Source: Candidatus Marinacidobacterales bacterium | Lineage (GTDB): Bacteria; Acidobacteriota; Vicinamibacteria; Marinacidobacterales; DATDRI01 | Reading direction: 5' to 3' | NCBI GenBank assembly: GCA_965219415.1 | Contig: CBDCNP010000002.1 | Span: 4,320,001 to 4,384,000, forward strand | Length of the DNA stretch: 64,000 bases | Part shown: piece after piece, positions 11,694 through 37,956 of the stretch | How the letters are laid out: the number at the start of each line of letters is the position of its first letter | Position numbering within the stretch: position 1 is the stretch's first letter | Notes under the pieces: generated by a model | Seen by the model: only the letters and a program-made list of their open reading frames with translations | Database searches by the model: none | Told to the model about the DNA's origin: nothing | Translations under genes and position numbers: made by a program

Positions 11694-12059
11694 GGTGCTT
11701 CCGCAATTTAGTGTTGGTGGCCAGCCCCTAACCCGTCTGCGTGCTAGAGTTTGAACCAGAATTCCGAAGACACAGTTCTCTCATCGTCAGGGCCGAGCCG
11801 AAGTGAAGAATCGCAGATGCTATTACAACTTCGTCCGACCGCACGGAGCTCTGAAGTTCGGACGTGAGATCCGAACTCCGGCTATGCAGGCTGGTCTGAC
11901 GACGCGACGGCTCACCTTTCGAGACATCTTCTTGGCGACGACGATTCCTTTGTGGTCGCAGATCGAGGTTTGCGTGCTCACTGGGGCGCGTAACTCGCTC
12001 TCTTCCGCACCTGTACCACTGCCCGCAGCCGCGTAGCAACACTTGATGGCGGAAGCACC
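11694..12059 (+). mobile_element. Internally deleted mini-IS1 (366 bp)
   Basis: Both IS1 TIRs present; the transposase start VKNRRC is joined directly to the C-terminal YYNFVRPH. Confidence 0.85.
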
Positions 12060-30993: not shown

Positions 30994-32967
30994 TCATTTA
31001 GAGAGGCGCAGGCTCCGAACGTTGGCTAGGGGCACGCCAGCCTTCTCCTCGAATTCAAGGCACAGTAAATTTTCACCAGGAATCAACAAGCGCTGGGGTA
31101 GGTCCGTTCTATGTTTCTCCCACTCCTTGCCCAACGGCCACCTGACCAAAACATGTCCGTTCAGCGTGACCGCAGCTATTACGAGGCCGCGGCGCGGGTG
31201 GGCTCGGGCCTCGACATGGAAGCGGAGGTCGGAGGGATCGAGGAGGGCAAACCTCATACAGGCCTGACCGCCCAAGACCTCCCGGTACCGAGGGAACCCA
31301 GCCGCGTTGCGCGGCACAGACCAGTCGCCAGTCAGGAACGTGCGCTCCGGAACAGCCATGTTGATTCGCCCGTCTCGGGCGGTTTTGCTCCAGAAGAAAT
31401 AACGGCCAACAAAGTAGTCGTAGACCAGGGAGCGGCTCGAGGGACCCGCAAGGAAGCCCAGCCATGATTCTGCCTTCCGCCGAGCGAGACGTGCCTGCCG
31501 GGCCAGGAGGTCGTCAACCGCCGCTTCGTTAGGAAAAGCGTGATTCCGCCACAGCGTGACGAACCCGGTATTCCAGAGGAAAAGCGCTGTGAGGACCACT
31601 ACTGGGGCTACCAGAGGCGCCGCGATCGCACCCTCCAGCAGTGTTGCATAGCCCAGAGCGGCGAGGGGAACGATGATGTCGAAACGCCGCGCTCCAAATG
31701 CATCGCTACCGTTCCAGCCGAAGGAGGGAAAAAGAGAACCGTTCAACCAGGCCGTGAGCAGAAACGTGAGCAGCCCAGCTCCAGCGAGCAACTTCCACCT
31801 CCGAAAGCCTATGGCCAGACCAACCACGCCGACGAACATCCCGGGCGTCCAAGAGAAGAACCCGCGATCTGCAGAGAACAGAACCGAAAGAAAGCGGGGA
31901 GACCGCAAGGAGAGCCAGCTCTCTTCCAGCATGCCCGGGCCGAGTCCAAAGGGTGAGCCGTAGATAATCCACCAGACGAGAATCTGCGGAAGGACGGCGG
32001 CGAGGGACGCTACCACGCCCCCAAGAATCCAGGAGAAGTGTATCCTGCGGCGCCAGAGCTGAACTAACCCCAAGGAGATGGGCAGTATCGCATAGGCCAC
32101 GGCTTGGAAACGCACCAAGGTCAGCAGTCCGGTCGCAGCTCCGAGGACGACCCAAGAGCTCAGAGACGGCGACTCCTCGACCCTCAGCCACGCGGCCAGT
32201 GTAGCAGCGGCCAGCCCGAAGGCGATGCCGTGAGCCATGCCGGGCTGTACGAAAAGGTAGAACACGACCGGCGACGTGAGGACCGCCCCCCCCACCGCCA
32301 GCAGGGCCACGGCCTCCCGGACGCGGCGGGCGAGGGCTTGGATGAGTAGGAGGGCTCCGATGACGGCGACTGTGAAGGTGCCGGGCAGGGTGGAGCGGAG
32401 GTAGGGGATGCTGAACCCGTCTGCGGCGTAGTTGACGAGCCCGAGGGCTCGGCCGACCACGACGTAGCCATGGGCGACGGCAAAGAAGGGGGCCCAGAAC
32501 AGGCTCGGCCCGATGGAACCCTCGTTCACCCGATGCCCGGTCCGGGTGATCGGTTTCTCGCTGTATCCCCAGTGGTCCCACTCGTTGGCAAAGTCGATGT
32601 CGTGGTCGAAGGCCAGCGATCGCAAATAGGAATAGTACGTGGGGGCGTCCGTCCGGAGCAGATAGGGTTCCGCCCAGGCCCCTGCTCCGTACCCGGTGGC
32701 CAGAACCACCGCCACTGCCCACCGACGCCATGTGCCGGCGCGCCAAGCTTCGGCTAAATACCCGCAAAGTGTTAGCAGCGGACCCGCGAGCTGCCCCGCT
32801 CGTGTCGCCGGGTCCAGCGCGGCCGCGAAGGACCAAGCGAGGCCGGCAATCACCAAAGCACCTGGAACAAGTCTGACAACGCTTGCCCGGAACCGCCGCA
32901 TGGCGACTATGTTAACGGTAGGGGCCACGATGATATCCCGTCTCTCGTTGAAACTGAGCGATGGCAA
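30994..32967 (-). CDS. GT-C-type membrane glycosyltransferase (GT39/PMT-like)
   Basis: DAPTYYSYLRSLAFDHDIDF, IGPSLFWAPF, LFSADRGFFSWTP, FGARRF; start uncertain (~32901-32967). Confidence 0.7.
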   Translation of the reverse strand: MPSLSFNERRDIIVAPTVNIVAMRRFRASVVRLVPGALVIAGLAWSFAAALDPATRAGQLAGPLLTLCGYLAEAWRAGTWRRWAVAVVLATGYGAGAWAEPYLLRTDAPTYYSYLRSLAFDHDIDFANEWDHWGYSEKPITRTGHRVNEGSIGPSLFWAPFFAVAHGYVVVGRALGLVNYAADGFSIPYLRSTLPGTFTVAVIGALLLIQALARRVREAVALLAVGGAVLTSPVVFYLFVQPGMAHGIAFGLAAATLAAWLRVEESPSLSSWVVLGAATGLLTLVRFQAVAYAILPISLGLVQLWRRRIHFSWILGGVVASLAAVLPQILVWWIIYGSPFGLGPGMLEESWLSLRSPRFLSVLFSADRGFFSWTPGMFVGVVGLAIGFRRWKLLAGAGLLTFLLTAWLNGSLFPSFGWNGSDAFGARRFDIIVPLAALGYATLLEGAIAAPLVAPVVVLTALFLWNTGFVTLWRNHAFPNEAAVDDLLARQARLARRKAESWLGFLAGPSSRSLVYDYFVGRYFFWSKTARDGRINMAVPERTFLTGDWSVPRNAAGFPRYREVLGGQACMRFALLDPSDLRFHVEARAHPRRGLVIAAVTLNGHVLVRWPLGKEWEKHRTDLPQRLLIPGENLLCLEFEEKAGVPLANVRSLRLSK

Positions 32968-33184
32968 TCCAACGGTTCTGTAAACCTAATTATCCGAATG
33001 CGCTTCGTTGATGCTAACACCGTTCCGCTGCTCATGACACTGGGCCCGTCCTGTGCCAAAATTTGGCCCCTTTGAAATAGACCGGTGCTTCCGCCATCAA
33101 GTGATGGAATGGACTCCTCCACTGACATAGACGGCATCGATGTGCCAAAGTCAGTCGAATACGCATCGAAAAGGAGGAGTCCAA

Positions 33185-34216
33185 ATGAAAGATACGACAA
33201 TCGCTGTGGATCTTGCAAAGAACGTCTTCGAGATTGCCATCTCGGGAGAAGCGGGGAAGGTGTCCAAGCAACTCCGTGTGAGTCGACCCAAATTGGTGTC
33301 GTTCTTTGCCAAACAGAGCGCTGCCACCGTGCTTCTCGAAGCCTGCGGCTCGGCTCACTTCTGGGCAAGGACGTTCCGAAGGTTGGGACACGACGTCGTC
33401 CTGCTCCCACCTCACCTCGTGAGGCCGTATCGACGCGGGAGCAAGAACGACCGCGCCGACACGAAGGCGTTGCTCGAGGCCTACAGGAACGAGGAGCTTC
33501 TTCCCGTACCCATCAAGTCCGTGCACCAGCACACCCTCGCTGCGCTCCATCGCCTGCGCTCAGGATGGCTCTCCACACGGACCGCACGCATCAATGCCGT
33601 ACGCGGGCTCCTGCGCGAACTCGGATTCATCATCCCAAAGGGCGCTCACTTCGTCGTGCCCGCCCTCTTCGAACTCGTCGAAGACGCTGATTCTGATTTG
33701 CCCGACGTGCTCCGTTCGCATCTCCGTGATGCCTGCTCCGAGATTCGAGAACTCAAGGACAAGTGCGCTAGCATCGAGCACGAGCTCAAGGCGCTCACCA
33801 AGCAGCTTCCTGAAGTCCAACGACTTCTCGCCATTCCCGGCATCGGACTTCTGGCCGCGACCGCCATCGTGGGCTTCGTCGGCGATCTTCGCCGCTTCCC
33901 ATCGGGGCGCCGCTTCTCGAGCTACCTCGGCCTAGTTCCCAAGGAAAACTCCAGTGGCGACATTCGCCGCCTCGGACGCATCACCAAGCGTGGCGACTCC
34001 TACCTCCGTATGCTCCTCACCCAGGGCGGGCGCGCCGTGCTCCGCGCGGCGAACGTCAGCAAGAGCCCGCCCGACAAGCTCCGCGCCTGGGCTCGGAAGG
34101 TCCACCGCTCGCGGGGACACAACAAGGCCGTGATTGCTGTCGCCAACAAACTCGCCCGGATCGTCTGGGCCGTCTCCACCCGCGAGAGTGAATTCCAGTC
34201 GCCGGTGGCCGCTTAG
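33185..34216 (+). CDS. IS110 DEDD recombinase/transposase
   Basis: AVDLAKNVF, LLEAC, KNDRAD, IPGIG, YLGLVP..NSSG, GRITKRGD, AVANKLAR; RBS GGAGG. Confidence 0.95.
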   Translation: MKDTTIAVDLAKNVFEIAISGEAGKVSKQLRVSRPKLVSFFAKQSAATVLLEACGSAHFWARTFRRLGHDVVLLPPHLVRPYRRGSKNDRADTKALLEAYRNEELLPVPIKSVHQHTLAALHRLRSGWLSTRTARINAVRGLLRELGFIIPKGAHFVVPALFELVEDADSDLPDVLRSHLRDACSEIRELKDKCASIEHELKALTKQLPEVQRLLAIPGIGLLAATAIVGFVGDLRRFPSGRRFSSYLGLVPKENSSGDIRRLGRITKRGDSYLRMLLTQGGRAVLRAANVSKSPPDKLRAWARKVHRSRGHNKAVIAVANKLARIVWAVSTRESEFQSPVAA

Positions 34217-34500
34217 ATTTAGAGGCTCCACTTTCGTGTTTTCCTTTTTCCCTTCCAAAAGAGGCTGCGACGATACCCATCCAACTGATGGCGTACCGGT
34301 CGGACCGGCGCGGGGTCAAGCCAATAGCAACACTGGCCCTAAGAGGTCGTTCAAAGTGATTGGCTCCTCGCGCGCGGATTTTCCATCATGGCCCGGAGCA
34401 CCCAAGACGCTCCTCACTGAGGCCGAAGATACGTTTGCAGTCTGACCCACTCGTCACGACGCGATGGATGCGCAGCTTCGATGGAAGATTTATTAAGAAA
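34217..34500 (+). ncRNA. Putative bridge/seek RNA in the 3' noncoding region of IS110
   Basis: Two stem-loops containing TAGCAACAC (complement of target) and TTCCATCAT (complement of circle junction); RNA boundaries approximate. Confidence 0.75.
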
Positions 34501-35209
34501 GGGGCGTGACTAGAAAGAAAGGGGCTTGACTAGAGGAGTCCAGATATGTTGCTACGCGGCTGCGGGCAGTGGTACAGGTGCGGAAGAGACCGGGTTGCGC
34601 GCCTCAGTGAGCAGTAAAACCTCGATCCGCGACCACAAAGGAATCGTCGTCGCCAAGAAGATGTCTCGAAAGGTGAGCCGTCGCGTGGTCAGACCGGCCT
34701 GCATAGCCGGAGTTCGGATCTCACGTCCGAACTTCAGAGTTCCGTGCGGTCGGACGAAGTTGTAATAGCAACGGAGCAACTCCATGTGCTCATCGAGCCT
34801 CTCCGTCGAGCGAGTGTGGGAAAGCGTTCGTCTCGAAAGGTATGCCGAGCTTTGCCGGATCGTCAGATTTAACCGCTCGATGAACGACGTGTTCAATGTC
34901 GAGGAGTCCTCGGAGTTATTGAGCGTGTCTTCGAATCGCCACGCGGCTCCGTGCAGCGCTCTCCGTTCGACCTTGATGATACGACCGTTCCTGCGCGTCC
35001 TGTGCCAAAACTCGGCCCTCTTGAAATAGCCGATAAATCAGCAGCTTAGCGTCTGTGTTTTGCGACGGTGCCAAGGGCTGTGGGCTTACAATCGTCTGGC
35101 CCGAGGGTGTTATCTTCGGATCCATCATGACGTACCATGTGCAAATCCTACTGTTGGTCAGGCAGCCGTTGTTCGATCGGGCAGCCCTGCTGCTCACACA
35201 GACCTCATG

Positions 35210-35375
35210 GGTGCTTCCGCCATCAAGTGTTGGTGAGATGACGCTAAGACTTTACAGTGCATTAAGTTACAGTCAAAATAGCGCTTGTGACCTTCCCCGC
35301 GCGCTAAATGGAGCGTAAGTGCCTCTTTTGCAAAGGGATGCGTACATATCACCAACAGTAAACAGCGGAAGCACC
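35210..35375 (+). mobile_element. IS1-type MITE copy 5
   Basis: Homologous to 483-649. Confidence 0.85.
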
Positions 35376-35536
35376 TCGCGTTCCAGAACCTAGCGCTTTA
35401 CGCGCAGCGCCTCGGCAAACACCTGGTACAAGATGATCCGGGAGTGCGGGTGGAAGCGTCCCCGGAGGCACGTGCATCCGGCGAAGCCCAAGGAAGGCCT
35501 CAGAACAACGCGCCCCAACGAGTATTGGCAAATCGA
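35376..35536 (+). pseudogene. DDE integrase/transposase fragment
   Basis: WYKMIRECGWKRPR...GLRTTRPNEYWQID. Confidence 0.6.
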
Positions 35537-36623
35537 TGCCTTGGTGCACAACTCCGATAGAGGCCGAGAGCTCACTTGGCCCCGACTCCCATCATCCGAT
35601 CATCTCGCTATCAGGCATCCCGAGCGCCGTCATGGTGTTGAGAATCTTGCACCCGATCCTTGCCTCACCTCTCTGTGCCGCCAACCCTCTCGCTCGCATC
35701 GCTGAGCCCACGATAGCCTTGTAGCGATGGAACGTTGTCTCGACTTTGCTCCGTTTGCTGTAGTCCGATTCTGTGTGCCACTTTCGTTTGCCGAGCCGAG
35801 CTTGTGCTGCAATGTTGCGATTGCGCTGTCGGCTGCTCGCCGGCCCCGATGCGAGCAGGGCGCCCTTGCGCGGCGGTATCAGCACCCTCGGCGAGCGATG
35901 AGCGCTGTGATTCTCGATTGCCTCATAGACGCCGCCGGCGTCGTATGCGGTGTCAGCTCTGGCCGATGAGATGGGACTGTCGATCTGTCCGACAAGCGAT
36001 GCAACCCGCGATGAATCGCGGGCTCTTTTGCTCGTCAGCTCGCCGGCGACGACTTCGCCACTCTGCTCGTCGACACACAGATGGAGCTTGCGATAGTCCC
36101 TGCTCTTTTGTGCTCTGCGCAGCTGGCCGGCGTGGACAGCGAGACCGCTGCTGTCGATCAAGATGTGCAACGGCGTCTTCTGCTTGACTGGGTAGAAGGG
36201 GACCTTACCCAGCTTCGGCTTGCGCCTCGAGCTCGTGGTGTGATCGGGCACATCATTGTCTAGCTTCATCAGAGCGAACAACGACCGCAGCAATCCCTCG
36301 CTCTGCCTAGATGACAGATGAAACACCATGCCCAGGGTGACAGCCGTCTCGATGGCGTGGTTCGAGTACCTGCGTTGACGGCCCGGTTTCCTCCTCCTTG
36401 GCCGGAGCGCGTCCCAGTTCACAAGCTTGCCGGCGGTGAGCGAGATCCAGACGGTCAGGCTCCCGCGGTTGCGTAGACCCGCCTCATATTCACGCCAATT
36501 CCTCACGCGATAGGCCTTCTTCACATACTTCCGCTGAGTGCGTTTGAAAATGCTCATGGGGAACCTCGTATCCGCGAGTACAGGACAATTGTGGACCGAG
36601 ATCGAGAGTTGTGCACCAAGGCA
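35537..36623 (-). mobile_element. IS5-family element (IS903-like)
   Basis: Perfect 18-bp TIR TGCCTTGGTGCACAACTC. Confidence 0.9.
35592..36557 (-). CDS. IS5 transposase
   Basis: NWREYEAGLRNRGSL, PDHTT, IDSSGL, ADTAYD, RSKVETTF. Confidence 0.9.
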   Translation of the reverse strand: MSIFKRTQRKYVKKAYRVRNWREYEAGLRNRGSLTVWISLTAGKLVNWDALRPRRRKPGRQRRYSNHAIETAVTLGMVFHLSSRQSEGLLRSLFALMKLDNDVPDHTTSSRRKPKLGKVPFYPVKQKTPLHILIDSSGLAVHAGQLRRAQKSRDYRKLHLCVDEQSGEVVAGELTSKRARDSSRVASLVGQIDSPISSARADTAYDAGGVYEAIENHSAHRSPRVLIPPRKGALLASGPASSRQRNRNIAAQARLGKRKWHTESDYSKRSKVETTFHRYKAIVGSAMRARGLAAQRGEARIGCKILNTMTALGMPDSEMIG

Positions 36624-36670
36624 CTGATTCACCACGTCAGGGCTGTGAACCCTCTGACGTAGATCTACCC

Positions 36671-37956
36671 TGTCCATCATCATTATTAATCCGGGACTGG
36701 ACTCTAGGGCCCAGACCGCCCTCGAGCACATGCTGGAGAGCGTGGTCAGCGCGCGAGGGAAGGTGCTGAGGACAAACTTCTCGGCGACCAGCCGAGTAAC
36801 GCGAGCGACCAAGCTGACTCAAGCTGCCTCTCGCCACTCGTATCGATGGTGCAGTCCACCGACTCGCGGCAGTGCGACTACTTTCGCCGTAGGAGACGGT
36901 CGGTGCGTGACCGTTCTCAAGCTCGGTGTGTCCTTGTTCAGCCCCAAGTGGCAACGGTCCTCATGATAGTAGCTGATGTAAGCTCGCACGAGCCGGATGA
37001 GATGACATGCGCCGAGAACCACGACGTGCTCAAGGAGCTCGCGACGGCAGCTGCCGACCCACCGCTCCGCGGTTCCGTTTTGCCATGGGCTGCGAAGCGA
37101 AGTGCGAACGGGTTTTGTGCCCGTTGCCTTGATGAACTCGATGACCGCAGCGTTAAAGATGAAGTCGCGATCGAAGATGAGATATCTCGGAGCGGTGTCG
37201 TAGGGAAACGCCTCGCGGAGTTGCTGAATAACCCAAGCAGACGTCGGGTGGAACGTGGCGTTGAAGTGAACGATGTGCCGGCGACCGTGCTCGATGACGA
37301 AGAAGCCGTACAGCAGCCGGAGCGACGCGGTGGGCACGGTGAACAGATCCATGGCGGCGATATCGTCTTTATGGTTGCGCAAGAAAGCCATCCATCGTTT
37401 CAGCTGGTCGGGCTCCGCGGGACGCCGCGGCAGGTATCGCGACACCGTGCTCTCGGAGATGATGAAACCGAGCTTGGTGAGCTCAGCATGGATGCGTGGC
37501 GCCCCCCAGCCGTCTTGCGCCATCGTGCGGACGACGCGACGAATCTCGGCATCAATCCGAGGCCGACCGGGATGGCGGCGCTGCGAGATCTTTGCCCAGT
37601 ACCGTCGGAATCGGTCGCGATGCCAACGGGCTACGGTGTCCGCGTGGACGATGAGCAGGCGGCTCGCCCACACGGGCCACGAACCTCGAAGGGCAACCCA
37701 GAAAGCCCGTTCCGTGTCTTCGAGCGGTGGGCGTGGGCGCTCTTTCTTCAGCGCCGTCACTTGCTGCCGCAAAGCGACGTTCTCCAACACCAGATCGGCG
37801 CGGCGCCGACACATCGCCCGAATGGCACGGACGCCAAGTGAGACGAGGAAGACAACAACGTTGAGCATAGCGGCGGAGTTTCGCCGTCTTCGGTCCGGAA
37901 TTCAAGCGGAGCGTAAGTCCTTGATTTCGTGGGCGGAGCAGTTTTGACGATGCACA
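36671..37956 (-). mobile_element. Complete family A rve-type IS (transposase 36819-37868)
   Basis: Near-identical to 1244-2528. Confidence 0.9.

What the first reader, a model, noticed from the sequence alone, without database searches (positions are those of the whole stretch)
33084..34560. IS110/IS1111 bridge RNA visibly programmed against the terminal repeat of a co-resident IS1
Seen: removing 33102-34548 (leaving one TG) restores the IS1 right end CCATCAAG-TG-TTGCTACG. In the 3' noncoding region, a stem (AGCCAA 34319-24 / TTGGCT 34360-65) encloses TAGCAACAC (34325-33), the exact complement of target GTGTTGCTA. It also encloses TCAAAGTG (34351-58), resembling the left target TCAAGTG. A second loop holds TTCCATCAT (34381-89), the exact complement of the predicted circle junction ATGATGGAA, and AGATA (34427-31), matching the right end. 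An empty perfect target sits at ~12034-12049, while the MITEs read GTGTTGGTG and mismatch the guide. Known: IS110 elements use bridge/seek RNAs, and IS4321/IS5075 target Tn21-family TIRs. Inference: this is an RNA-guided parasite of an IS1 family that can immobilise it, with the MITE ends possibly escaping.
Basis: partly seen in the sequence, partly recalled or inferred. Interest (0 to 1): 0.82.

Follow-up and report, generated by a model that had tools for sequence, protein, structure and literature searches.

The report
RNA-guided IS targeting another IS's ends
This is a 1.4-kb jumping gene of the known IS110/IS1111 type whose own small RNA matches, and steers it into, one end of a second, very abundant jumping gene; it is a clear new example of a mechanism described in 2024, not a new mechanism.

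Summary
Window 33104-34548 is a 1445-bp IS1111-type element: a 343-aa DEDD transposase, 10-bp subterminal inverted repeats, a 332-nt 3' non-coding region and a TG core. In this genome 33 of 33 left ends lie after the same 20-bp terminal repeat of an IS1-like element. Of the 30 copies with a right end, 29 are followed by the TTGCTA-type inner arm.

The 3' region folds into two internal loops on a conserved scaffold. The target loop is complementary to 10 nt of the right half-site and matches the left half-site. The donor loop matches the element's own two ends.

Across diverged relatives (90, 61 and 46% transposase identity, and others) the loop letters change together with the flanks. In a 92-94% relative carrying the same target loop, six copies lie outside the repeat, yet their last 7 flank nt differ from the cognate half-site at only 0-2 positions.

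Repeat ends with a mismatched right arm are almost never hit (1 of 323, against 29 of 116).

"Immobilises IS1" is untested. "MITEs escape" is only half right. One MITE family is the most heavily hit, and the mismatched ends also occur in related genomes that lack this IS.

Verdict: a new member of a known kind. No RNA evidence was obtained.

The parts
33084..33103 (+). Outer 20 bp of the terminal inverted repeat of the IS1-like host element. Its last 7-9 nt form the left half of the target, ending in the core TG (33102-33103).
   Evidence: The same 20 nt precede 33 of 33 left ends in the genome. There are 481 copies in the genome at up to 3 mismatches.
33104..34548 (+). The IS1111-type insertion sequence, 1445 bp, counted with the right-hand copy of the TG core.
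   Evidence: One search gave 30 loci covering nearly the full length; one search found 30 copies with both ends. The 25 copies of exactly 1445 bp differ by a mean of 0.53 nt.
33110..33119 (+). Left subterminal inverted repeat (10 bp), 6 nt from the tip.
   Evidence: Read. It is the perfect complement of 34534-34543.
33111..33182 (+). 5' leader hairpin. The left subterminal repeat pairs with the ribosome-binding stretch just before the start codon.
   Evidence: -32.9 kcal/mol, z -4.28, 0 of 200 shuffles as stable. Its function is inferred.
33185..34216 (+). DEDD transposase / bridge recombinase, 343 aa.
   Evidence: PF01548 (6.9e-12) and PF02371 (3.2e-24). NF033542 'IS110 family RNA-guided transposase' at 302.9 bits, cut-off 140. 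The G-L-x-P-x4-S-G motif is read in the ORF.
34217..34548 (+). 3' non-coding region that carries the guide RNA and the right end.
34298..34447 (+). Predicted bridge/seek RNA scaffold: an outer stem and two stem-internal-loop-hairpin modules.
   Evidence: Alignments A2 and A3 and model R1. 92.9% of cells are paired against 35-49% when slid. 15 of 43 pairs carry changes on both sides, and 0 of 500 shuffles reach that.
34308..34373 (+). Target-binding module. The 5' side of the loop (34325-34334) is complementary to the top strand of core plus right half-site. The 3' side (34351-34360) equals the top strand of left half-site plus core plus the first 2 nt of the element.
34374..34440 (+). Donor-binding module. 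The 5' side (34381-34389) is complementary to the left end. The 3' side (34427-34435) equals the right end, with one mismatch in the core, plus the first 2 nt of the right target.
   Evidence: The 5' hexamer pairs with the left end in 9 of 9 elements, which carry 4 different left ends.
34534..34543 (+). Right subterminal inverted repeat.
34549..34557 (+). Right half of the target: the inner part of the host repeat, of the TTGCTA type.
   Evidence: 29 of the 30 copies with a right end have it.
34549..34984 (-). Rest of the interrupted IS1-like element (C-terminal part of its transposase, 34552-34896 on the minus strand). It is cut off near 34985 by a member of a second repeat family.
12031..12059 (-). 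Empty, perfect copy of the target, at the end of a 366-bp deletion derivative of the host element.
35210..35235 (+). Repeat end with a perfect left half-site but a TTGG-type right arm; not occupied.

Best explanation
Window 33104-34548 is an active-looking member of the IS1111 group of the IS110 family. Its DEDD recombinase is guided by an RNA made from the 3' non-coding region.

The RNA has two internal loops. The target loop pairs with both strands of a roughly 13-16-nt site. [quoted passage not shown] The donor loop pairs in the same way with the abutted ends of the excised circle.

The site lies 20 bp inside one of the two terminal repeats of a 1.2-kb IS1-like element and of its deletion derivatives, so the IS accumulates there in a single orientation.

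Shown here by computation: the site and orientation specificity, the complementarity, covariation of both loops with flanks and ends, the conserved scaffold, and discrimination against repeat ends with 2-3 mismatches in the right arm.

Inferred from the family: that the RNA is made and bound, that a circle is formed, and that the core is where strands are exchanged.
For: Family features. PF01548, PF02371 and NF033542 score above their cut-offs. The protein is 343 aa. There are 10-bp subterminal repeats, a long 3' and a short 5' non-coding end.

Site use in this genome. 33 of 33 left ends follow the same 20 nt. 29 of the 30 copies with a right end are followed by the TTGCTA arm. 29 of 30 copies have distinct outer flanks.

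Independence of insertions. The IS copies differ by a mean of 0.53 nt per 1445. No two copies within a host class share an identical 120-bp host flank (0 of 105 and 0 of 55 pairs). The insertions are therefore recent and independent, not copies of one composite.

Order of the guide segments. The segment complementary to the top strand lies 5' of the segment matching the bottom strand. The seekRNA paper reports this order for IS1111 elements (PMC11187229, sections read).

Covariation of the target loop. Eight elements have a right flank on hand. The longest exact complement between the 5' loop side and the element's own right flank is 8, 10, 10, 9, 4, 9, 7 and 4 nt. The mean for other elements' flanks is 3.7. 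One of the two low values (L139) reads by eye as 8 Watson-Crick pairs plus one G-U (sequences).

Natural reprogramming. L047 is 90% identical in DNA. It differs almost only in the two sides of the target loop and sits in a different site that its loop matches.

Donor loop. Its 5' hexamer pairs with left-end positions 1-6 in 9 of 9 elements, across 4 left-end variants.

Scaffold. 15 of 43 pairs show changes on both sides, and 92.9% of cells are paired against 35-49% in slid controls.

Discrimination. Occupied against empty is 29:87 for TTGCTA ends and 1:322 for TTGG ends (Fisher p 2e-17).

Relatives. 45 of 52 left ends are in the repeat. Six of the seven exceptions are the non-repeat sites of one genome, and their last 7 nt differ from the cognate half-site at only 0-2 positions.
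Against: No transcript was demonstrated. Only assembled contigs of RNA libraries were available, and they cannot show an RNA's ends, strand or level.

No Rfam family matched. No promoter-like site lies inside the element in a simple scan.

The left-arm guide matches only 5 nt plus 2 nt contiguously, or 9 nt with a one-base bulge.

The 3' donor guide has C where the right end has T in the core.

Two of the eight relatives match their own right flank poorly in exact letters (L137, L139). L137 also matches its left flank at only 6 of 10 positions by my reading.

The structural alignment was fitted to the model, and the sequences are related, which inflates the pair counts. The model's E-values are rough.

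Specificity is not absolute. One insertion in this genome, and one in a relative (L070), sit in TTGG-type ends.
Confidence: 0.88

Rival explanations
1. Only the target module works as a guide (a short seekRNA). The element's own ends are recognised by the protein through the subterminal inverted repeats, and the apparent donor loop is a by-product.
For: The seekRNA paper found that an 82-nt RNA carrying only the two target matches is sufficient for ISEc11 movement (PMC11187229, section read). Subterminal repeats are present here. The core-pairing letters of the donor loop are not conserved among relatives.
Against: The 5' donor hexamer pairs with the left end in 9 of 9 elements, through 4 different left ends. 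That includes three fully Watson-Crick combinations that differ from one another. The 3' side tracks the right end, including in two relatives with a different right end. Both modules sit in one conserved scaffold.
Confidence: 0.08
2. The copies spread by hitch-hiking. One ancient insertion into a host element was then multiplied by the host's own transposition, so the common site says nothing about targeting.
For: The outer 20 bp of the host repeat stay at the tip of the composite. Composites of uniform length (about 1690 bp) occur at least 10 times.
Against: The IS copies are near-identical (mean 0.53 differences per 1445 nt). The host parts beside them belong to at least three sequence classes, and within a class no two are identical (0 of 105 and 0 of 55 pairs). 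Six copies in one relative lie outside any repeat but share the left half-site at 0-2 differences. A variant with a changed loop sits in a matching new site.
Confidence: 0.02
3. The site is read by the transposase protein, and the RNA complementarity is coincidence.
For: No RNA or binding data exist for this element. The match counts on one sequence alone are only moderately improbable (2 of 5000 shuffles reach both).
Against: The loops change with the flanks in elements at 90, 61 and 46% transposase identity and in others. L047 keeps a nearly identical protein (94% best-segment transposase identity; 90% DNA identity) yet has a new loop and a new site. The family's mechanism is established experimentally (PMC11208160, passages; PMC11187229).
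Confidence: 0.02

Closest known systems
[quoted passage not shown]
   Same: An IS1111-type element with subterminal repeats that inserts at one fixed position and in one orientation inside the terminal repeat of another mobile element. I saw this only as the title of Partridge and Hall 2003 in the reference lists of PMC11208160. The paper itself is not held.
   Different: The host here is an IS1-like insertion sequence and its MITEs, in uncultured marine Acidobacteriota. Only one of the host's two ends carries the site. The copy numbers are far higher (481 repeat ends, 33 insertions in one genome).
ISEc11, ISKpn4, ISPst6 and ISPa11 with their seekRNAs (Siddiquee et al. 2024, PMC11187229)
   Same: The non-coding region lies downstream. 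A short RNA carries a top-strand match 5' of a bottom-strand match. There is natural re-direction between close relatives (ISEc11 and ISXne4 there, the window element and L047 here). I read sections 4, 6, 9, 10 and 13.
   Different: Those elements target a short linear site, attC sites or REP sequences. Their RNA was shown to co-purify with the transposase and to be required. Nothing of that kind is shown here.
IS621 bridge RNA (Durrant et al. 2024, PMC11208160)
   Same: [quoted passage not shown] Here each 3' guide side also carries 2 further nt that match the partner DNA, as a handshake would. The handshake idea is recalled; it is not in the passages I read.
   Different: IS621 encodes the RNA in the left end, with the guide order reversed, and its core is CT. 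Here the RNA is in the right end and the core is TG. Some relatives show CG at the right junction.
ISPpu9 modular circles (PMC12288879; abstract read)
   Same: Separate 3' modules occur next to or apart from the transposase gene. Here, tandem extra copies of the 3' region follow some elements.
   Different: In ISPpu9 the downstream RNA was not needed for transposition. Here the extra modules join at TG, CG or GG sites inside the element. They may be footprints of self-insertion followed by recombination; that is an inference.

Membership tests
IS110 family, IS1111 group | [quoted passage not shown] | tested here: met
   (6.9e-12 and 3.2e-24, both above the gathering scores). NF033542 scores 302.9 bits against a cut-off of 140. 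The G-L-x-P-x4-S-G motif is read in the ORF.
IS110 family, IS1111 group | Subterminal inverted repeats of 7-17 bp with short terminal extensions | tested here: met
   A 10-bp perfect repeat at 33110-33119 and 34534-34543. The extensions are 6 nt on the left and 5 nt (or 3 nt plus core) on the right. That is close to, but not the same as, the 7 and 3 given in PMC11187229.
IS110 family, IS1111 group | The longer non-coding region lies downstream of the transposase gene; transposase of 330-350 aa | tested here: met
   332 nt downstream against 81 nt upstream; 343 aa.
IS110 family, IS1111 group | One specific target, one orientation, no target duplication beyond the shared core | tested here: met
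   33 of 33 left ends in this genome and 45 of 52 in relatives. Only TG is shared by the two junctions.
IS110 family, IS1111 group | Excised circular intermediate with abutted ends | not testable with these tools
   Only assembled contigs were on hand, and no back-joint was seen.
Bridge RNA / seekRNA | Internal loop(s) whose two sides match opposite strands of the target around the core, with the top-strand match first in IS1111 elements | tested here: met
.
Bridge RNA / seekRNA | Guide letters covary with the target and with the element ends among relatives | tested here: met
   Target: (own 8, 10, 10, 9, 4, 9, 7, 4 against a mean of 3.7 for others) and L047. Donor: 9 of 9.
Bridge RNA / seekRNA | The RNA is expressed and bound by the recombinase | tested here: inconclusive
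   Contigs from RNA libraries cover parts of the gene and of the 3' region (one covers 34120-34271 with no differences). They cannot show transcription.
Bridge RNA / seekRNA | Match to a curated RNA family | tested here: not met
   No Rfam 15 family matched at E up to 1, apart from one chance microRNA hit on the other strand. I do not know whether Rfam holds a model for IS1111 guide RNAs.
IS1 family (the host element) | Transposase matching the IS1 family model | tested here: inconclusive
   NF033558 is the best match, but at 81.7 bits it is below the cut-off of 100. ISL3 is second at 35.8 bits. Hits to the zinc-finger and HTH models are weak.
IS1 family (the host element) | Target-site duplication of 8-9 bp (recalled for the classical IS1 group; other subgroups are said to vary) | tested here: not met
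   Among 28 full-length copies, the immediate direct repeat is 0 nt in 19, 1 nt in 6, 2 nt in 1 and 3 nt in 2.
IS1 family (the host element) | Terminal inverted repeats of about 20-30 bp beginning GGTG (recalled) | tested here: met
   The 20-nt repeat is found in inverted pairs 1200 bp apart in 28 copies.

The most novel reading that the evidence does not exclude
The element is a dedicated RNA-guided hyperparasite of one IS1-like family, and its dynamics are set by the supply of targets. In two related genomes with many copies, no exact empty target end is left. In one of them, 6 of 11 copies sit at near-cognate chromosomal sites. In the other, a single-copy variant (L047) carries a rewritten target loop and sits in a new site. 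Exhaustion of the preferred target would then drive off-target insertion and natural reprogramming of the guide. Insertion would also disable the occupied end of the host element.
Probability: 0.2. Interest if true: 0.6.

Novelty: new member of a known kind. Interest (0 to 1): 0.4.

Why it matters
The mechanism is known. The value lies in the natural data set.

One genome offers 481 variants of a single target with 33 recent, independent insertions. That gives an in-vivo read-out of how many right-arm or left-arm mismatches this bridge recombinase tolerates. Occupancy is 25% of perfect ends, against 0.3% of ends with 2-3 right-arm mismatches.

Related genomes add three further cases. One shows off-target sites. 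One holds a naturally re-programmed guide.

The locus also extends insertion of one mobile element into the repeat of another, known to me (from the reference title seen) for Tn21-family transposons, to an insertion sequence and its MITEs in uncultured marine Acidobacteriota.

For people who engineer bridge recombinases, it supplies a compact IS1111-type scaffold with several natural guide variants.

Tried and rejected
Rfam scan of 32800-35400: nothing relevant.

Expression. One search for public runs, and four RNA or possibly-RNA runs laid on 32900-34750. All were assembled contigs. Fragments of the gene and of the 3' region are present, and one contig skips the whole element, which is an empty site in that sample. 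A 103-nt skip inside the RNA rests on a 21-nt side only. None of this shows a transcript, its ends or a circle junction.

Promoter scan: no sigma-70-like site inside the element. By eye, the right end carries a good -35-like hexamer inside a 20-bp tandem repeat, and the left end could supply a weak -10 once the ends are joined. I did not test this, because a joined sequence may not be typed into a tool.

Search for further copies of the L047 variant, in its own genome and in 55 genomes of the order: none. Its target rests on one insertion.

Partridge and Hall 2003 is not held. Supplements of the two 2024 papers are closed, and they may list this element or its target.

Literature searches on IS110/IS1111 elements and the repeats of other insertion sequences turned up no such case. 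That covers only this library.

Idea rejected: that TTGG-type ends evolved to escape. They are equally common in genomes without the IS.

Idea left open: that occupied IS1-like copies decay faster. 3 of 15 occupied class-A ends belong to an intact 1200-bp copy, against 29 of 58 empty ones. The numbers are small and no test was run.

One pattern search, meant to count occupied ends in five related genomes, was not run by the tool. The count was taken instead from loci already held, which cover only the copies fetched.
Full report
WHAT IS THERE

A 1445-bp block, 33104-34548, interrupts a 20-nt terminal repeat (33084-33103) and its inner continuation (from 34549). The dinucleotide TG is present at both junctions. 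The uninterrupted form of the same repeat end exists in the window at 12031-12059 on the minus strand.

The block has these parts:
- An ORF of 343 aa counted from the start codon behind a ribosome-binding stretch (33185-34216). It matches PF01548 and PF02371. It also matches NCBIfam NF033542, 'IS110 family RNA-guided transposase', at 302.9 bits against a cut-off of 140.
- A perfect 10-bp subterminal inverted repeat (33110-33119 and 34534-34543).
- An 81-nt 5' end and a 332-nt 3' end.

These are the features that define the IS1111 group. The criteria were read in PMC11187229 and PMC11208160.

COPIES AND INSERTION SITES

The window's genome has 8.05 Mb in 3 contigs.
- One search gave 30 loci covering nearly the full length, plus fragments. 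One search found 30 copies with both ends.
- All 33 left ends follow the same 20 nt, and 29 of 30 outer flanks are distinct.
- Of the 30 copies with a right end, 28 are followed directly by the TTGCTA-type arm. One reaches it after an extra tandem 3' module. One is followed by a TTGG-type arm.
- The 25 copies of exactly 1445 bp differ by a mean of 0.53 nt.
- The host sequence beside them falls into at least three classes, and no two are identical within a class (0 of 105 and 0 of 55 pairs).

The insertions are therefore recent and independent. They are not copies of one composite.

THE HOST ELEMENT

The 20-nt repeat occurs 481 times at up to 3 mismatches, and 20 times in the window against 0.03 expected. 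It bounds three kinds of element:
- A 1200-bp element (28 full-length copies) whose two ends differ inside. One end reads TTGCTA after the core. The other reads TTGG.
- A 245-bp MITE with one end of each type.
- Many further short derivatives with TTGG-type ends.

The element's transposase matches the IS1 family model best, but below its cut-off (81.7 bits against 100). No target duplication flanks the 28 copies. 'IS1-like' is the honest label.

THE RNA

The 3' region folds into an outer stem and two stem-internal-loop-hairpin modules.

First module:
- The 5' side of the loop (34325-34334) is complementary to 10 nt of the top strand. These are one base before the core, the core, and the six-base TTGCTA arm.
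- The 3' side (34351-34360) repeats the top strand of the left half-site, the core, and the first two bases of the element, with one extra A.

Second module:
- The 5' side (34381-34389) is complementary to the last three bases of the right end plus the first six of the left end.
- The 3' side (34427-34435) repeats the right end, with C for T at the first core position, plus the first two bases of the right target.

The top-strand complement lies 5' of the bottom-strand match. That is the order reported for IS1111 seekRNAs. The strand assignment is that of the IS621 bridge RNA.

On this one sequence the matches are only moderately improbable: 2 of 5000 shuffles reach both.

COVARIATION, THE DECISIVE TEST

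Relatives came from three searches. A scan of one genome per species gave 70 loci. A DNA search covered 55 genomes of the order. A covariance model built here found hits in 5 of 151 genomes of the phylum.

(a) L047 is 90% identical in DNA and is a single copy. It differs from the window element almost only in the two sides of the target loop. It sits in a different, non-repeat site. By my reading of those sequences, its 5' loop side pairs with that site over 10 Watson-Crick pairs plus 2 wobble pairs (exact run of 10).

(b) Elements at 61% (L132/L133), 46% (L069), 61% (L139) and 53-62% (L137/L138) transposase identity, and L140, keep the scaffold but carry other loop letters (the L139 and L137/L138 figures are, the L138 figure from a partial match, and the protein of L140 is not on its contig). 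The longest exact complement of each 5' loop side to its own right flank is 8, 10, 10, 9, 4, 9, 7 and 4 nt. The mean against other elements' flanks is 3.7. The low value for L139 hides 8 Watson-Crick pairs interrupted by one G-U. L137 really is a poor match.

(c) The 5' hexamer of the donor loop pairs with left-end positions 1-6 in 9 of 9 elements, although four different left ends occur. The 3' side follows the right end as well, including two relatives with a different right end.

(d) On an alignment of 11 sequences, 92.9% of cells pair, against 35-49% when the partners are slid. 15 of 43 pairs changed on both sides, and 0 of 500 shuffles reach these values. The alignment was fitted to the model and the sequences are kin, so these figures lean towards the structure.

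DISCRIMINATION BETWEEN REPEAT ENDS

Occupied against empty is 29:87 for TTGCTA-type ends and 1:322 for TTGG-type ends (Fisher p 2e-17). Most TTGG-type ends also differ in the left half-site: only 99 of 322 keep it.

The single hit in a TTGG-type end has a perfect left half-site. A relative (L070) sits in an end with one right-arm mismatch. So both arms count, and specificity is high but not absolute.

By host class, 15 of 73 ends with the IS1-like interior are occupied, and 11 of 29 ends of the 245-bp MITE.

'MITE ends escape' is half right. The commonest MITE ends mismatch the guide and are unoccupied. But the MITE that retains a TTGCTA end is the most heavily hit class.

Both end types also occur, in similar proportions, in three related genomes with no trace of this IS. 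The counts are 16:96, 12:59 and 36:54, against 62:256 here. The mismatch is an old asymmetry of the host's ends, not an evolved escape.

'Immobilises' is untested. The outer 20 bp stay in place, and nothing here can say whether the host transposase still uses such an end. That I found no identical composites fits immobilisation but does not show it.

RELATED GENOMES

In relatives, 45 of 52 left ends lie in the repeat: 22 of 23, 11 of 11, 3 of 3, 4 of 4 and 5 of 11 in five genomes.

The two genomes with most copies have no exact empty TTGCTA-type end. They have only 8 and 2 copies of the 12-nt core word, where about 1 is expected by chance (my estimate).

In one of these two genomes, six of eleven copies lie outside the repeat, at sites whose last 7 nt differ from the cognate half-site at 0-2 positions. 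One of the six (L049) may be a diverged repeat. This pattern suggests exhaustion of the preferred target followed by off-target insertion. It is an inference from assemblies in which repeats may be incomplete.

EXPRESSION

Only assembled contigs of RNA libraries could be laid. They give no verdict.

COMPARISON AND VERDICT

The element works like the IS1111 seekRNA/bridge RNA elements. It meets every membership feature that sequence can test.

Its closest biological precedent is IS4321/IS5075 in the repeats of Tn21-family transposons. I know that case here only from a reference title. My literature searches found no IS110-family element reported in the repeat of an IS1-like element. This library is partial, and ISfinder and the papers' supplements were out of reach.

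It is a new member of a known kind. It comes with a useful natural specificity data set and a natural re-programming event.

Noticed in passing
window 33043-33083 and 34985-35030; genome-wide: A second, equally abundant repeat family has 427 copies of a 31-nt end at up to 5 mismatches. It cuts off the IS1-like element at about 34985. The IS1-like repeat sits directly after the same position of it in 7 places. It also truncates the IS110-type element at one identical point of the 3' region in five loci of four genomes (L127-L131).
   Followed up: partly
window 33111-33182: The left subterminal repeat pairs with the ribosome-binding stretch of the transposase gene in a strong leader hairpin (z -4.28). 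The same two motifs are present in relatives L137, L139 and L141. It may block translation of read-through transcripts.
   Followed up: partly
G000 C3:3315125-3316853; L031, L039, L040, L056: Some copies are followed by one to three extra tandem copies of the 3' region and right end. These start at different internal points that carry TG, CG or GG at the joint. They may be footprints of insertion of one copy into another followed by recombination, or modular circles as described for ISPpu9.
   Followed up: partly
window 34497-34536: A 20-bp unit holding a -35-like hexamer is present twice here. It is present once in copies of 1425 bp and in the 98% relatives, and apparently three times in a 1465-bp copy.
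   Followed up: no
L132/L133, L069, L137-L140: In several relatives the left junction reads TG while the right junction reads CG. The guide sides often carry CG where the DNA has TG. The first core position seems to be tolerated as a mismatch or to be resolved differently at the two junctions.
   Followed up: partly
genomes G000 (family f1) versus G040, G049, G053-G055 (family f3): The IS (92-98% protein identity), the IS1-like repeat and the second repeat family are shared between two families of the order. Most other genomes of the order lack them. This suggests horizontal spread of the whole set. G000 is listed with 8.45% contamination, but the window lies on its 5.7-Mb contig.
   Followed up: no
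L069:2300-4100: The 46% relative appears to carry about 250 nt of extra sequence between its guide RNA and its right end. That extra sequence repeats the DNA found upstream of the element.
   Followed up: no
window 35592-36812 (-): A 406-aa ORF lies just right of the nest of elements. By eye it looks like another transposase. It was not searched.
   Followed up: no
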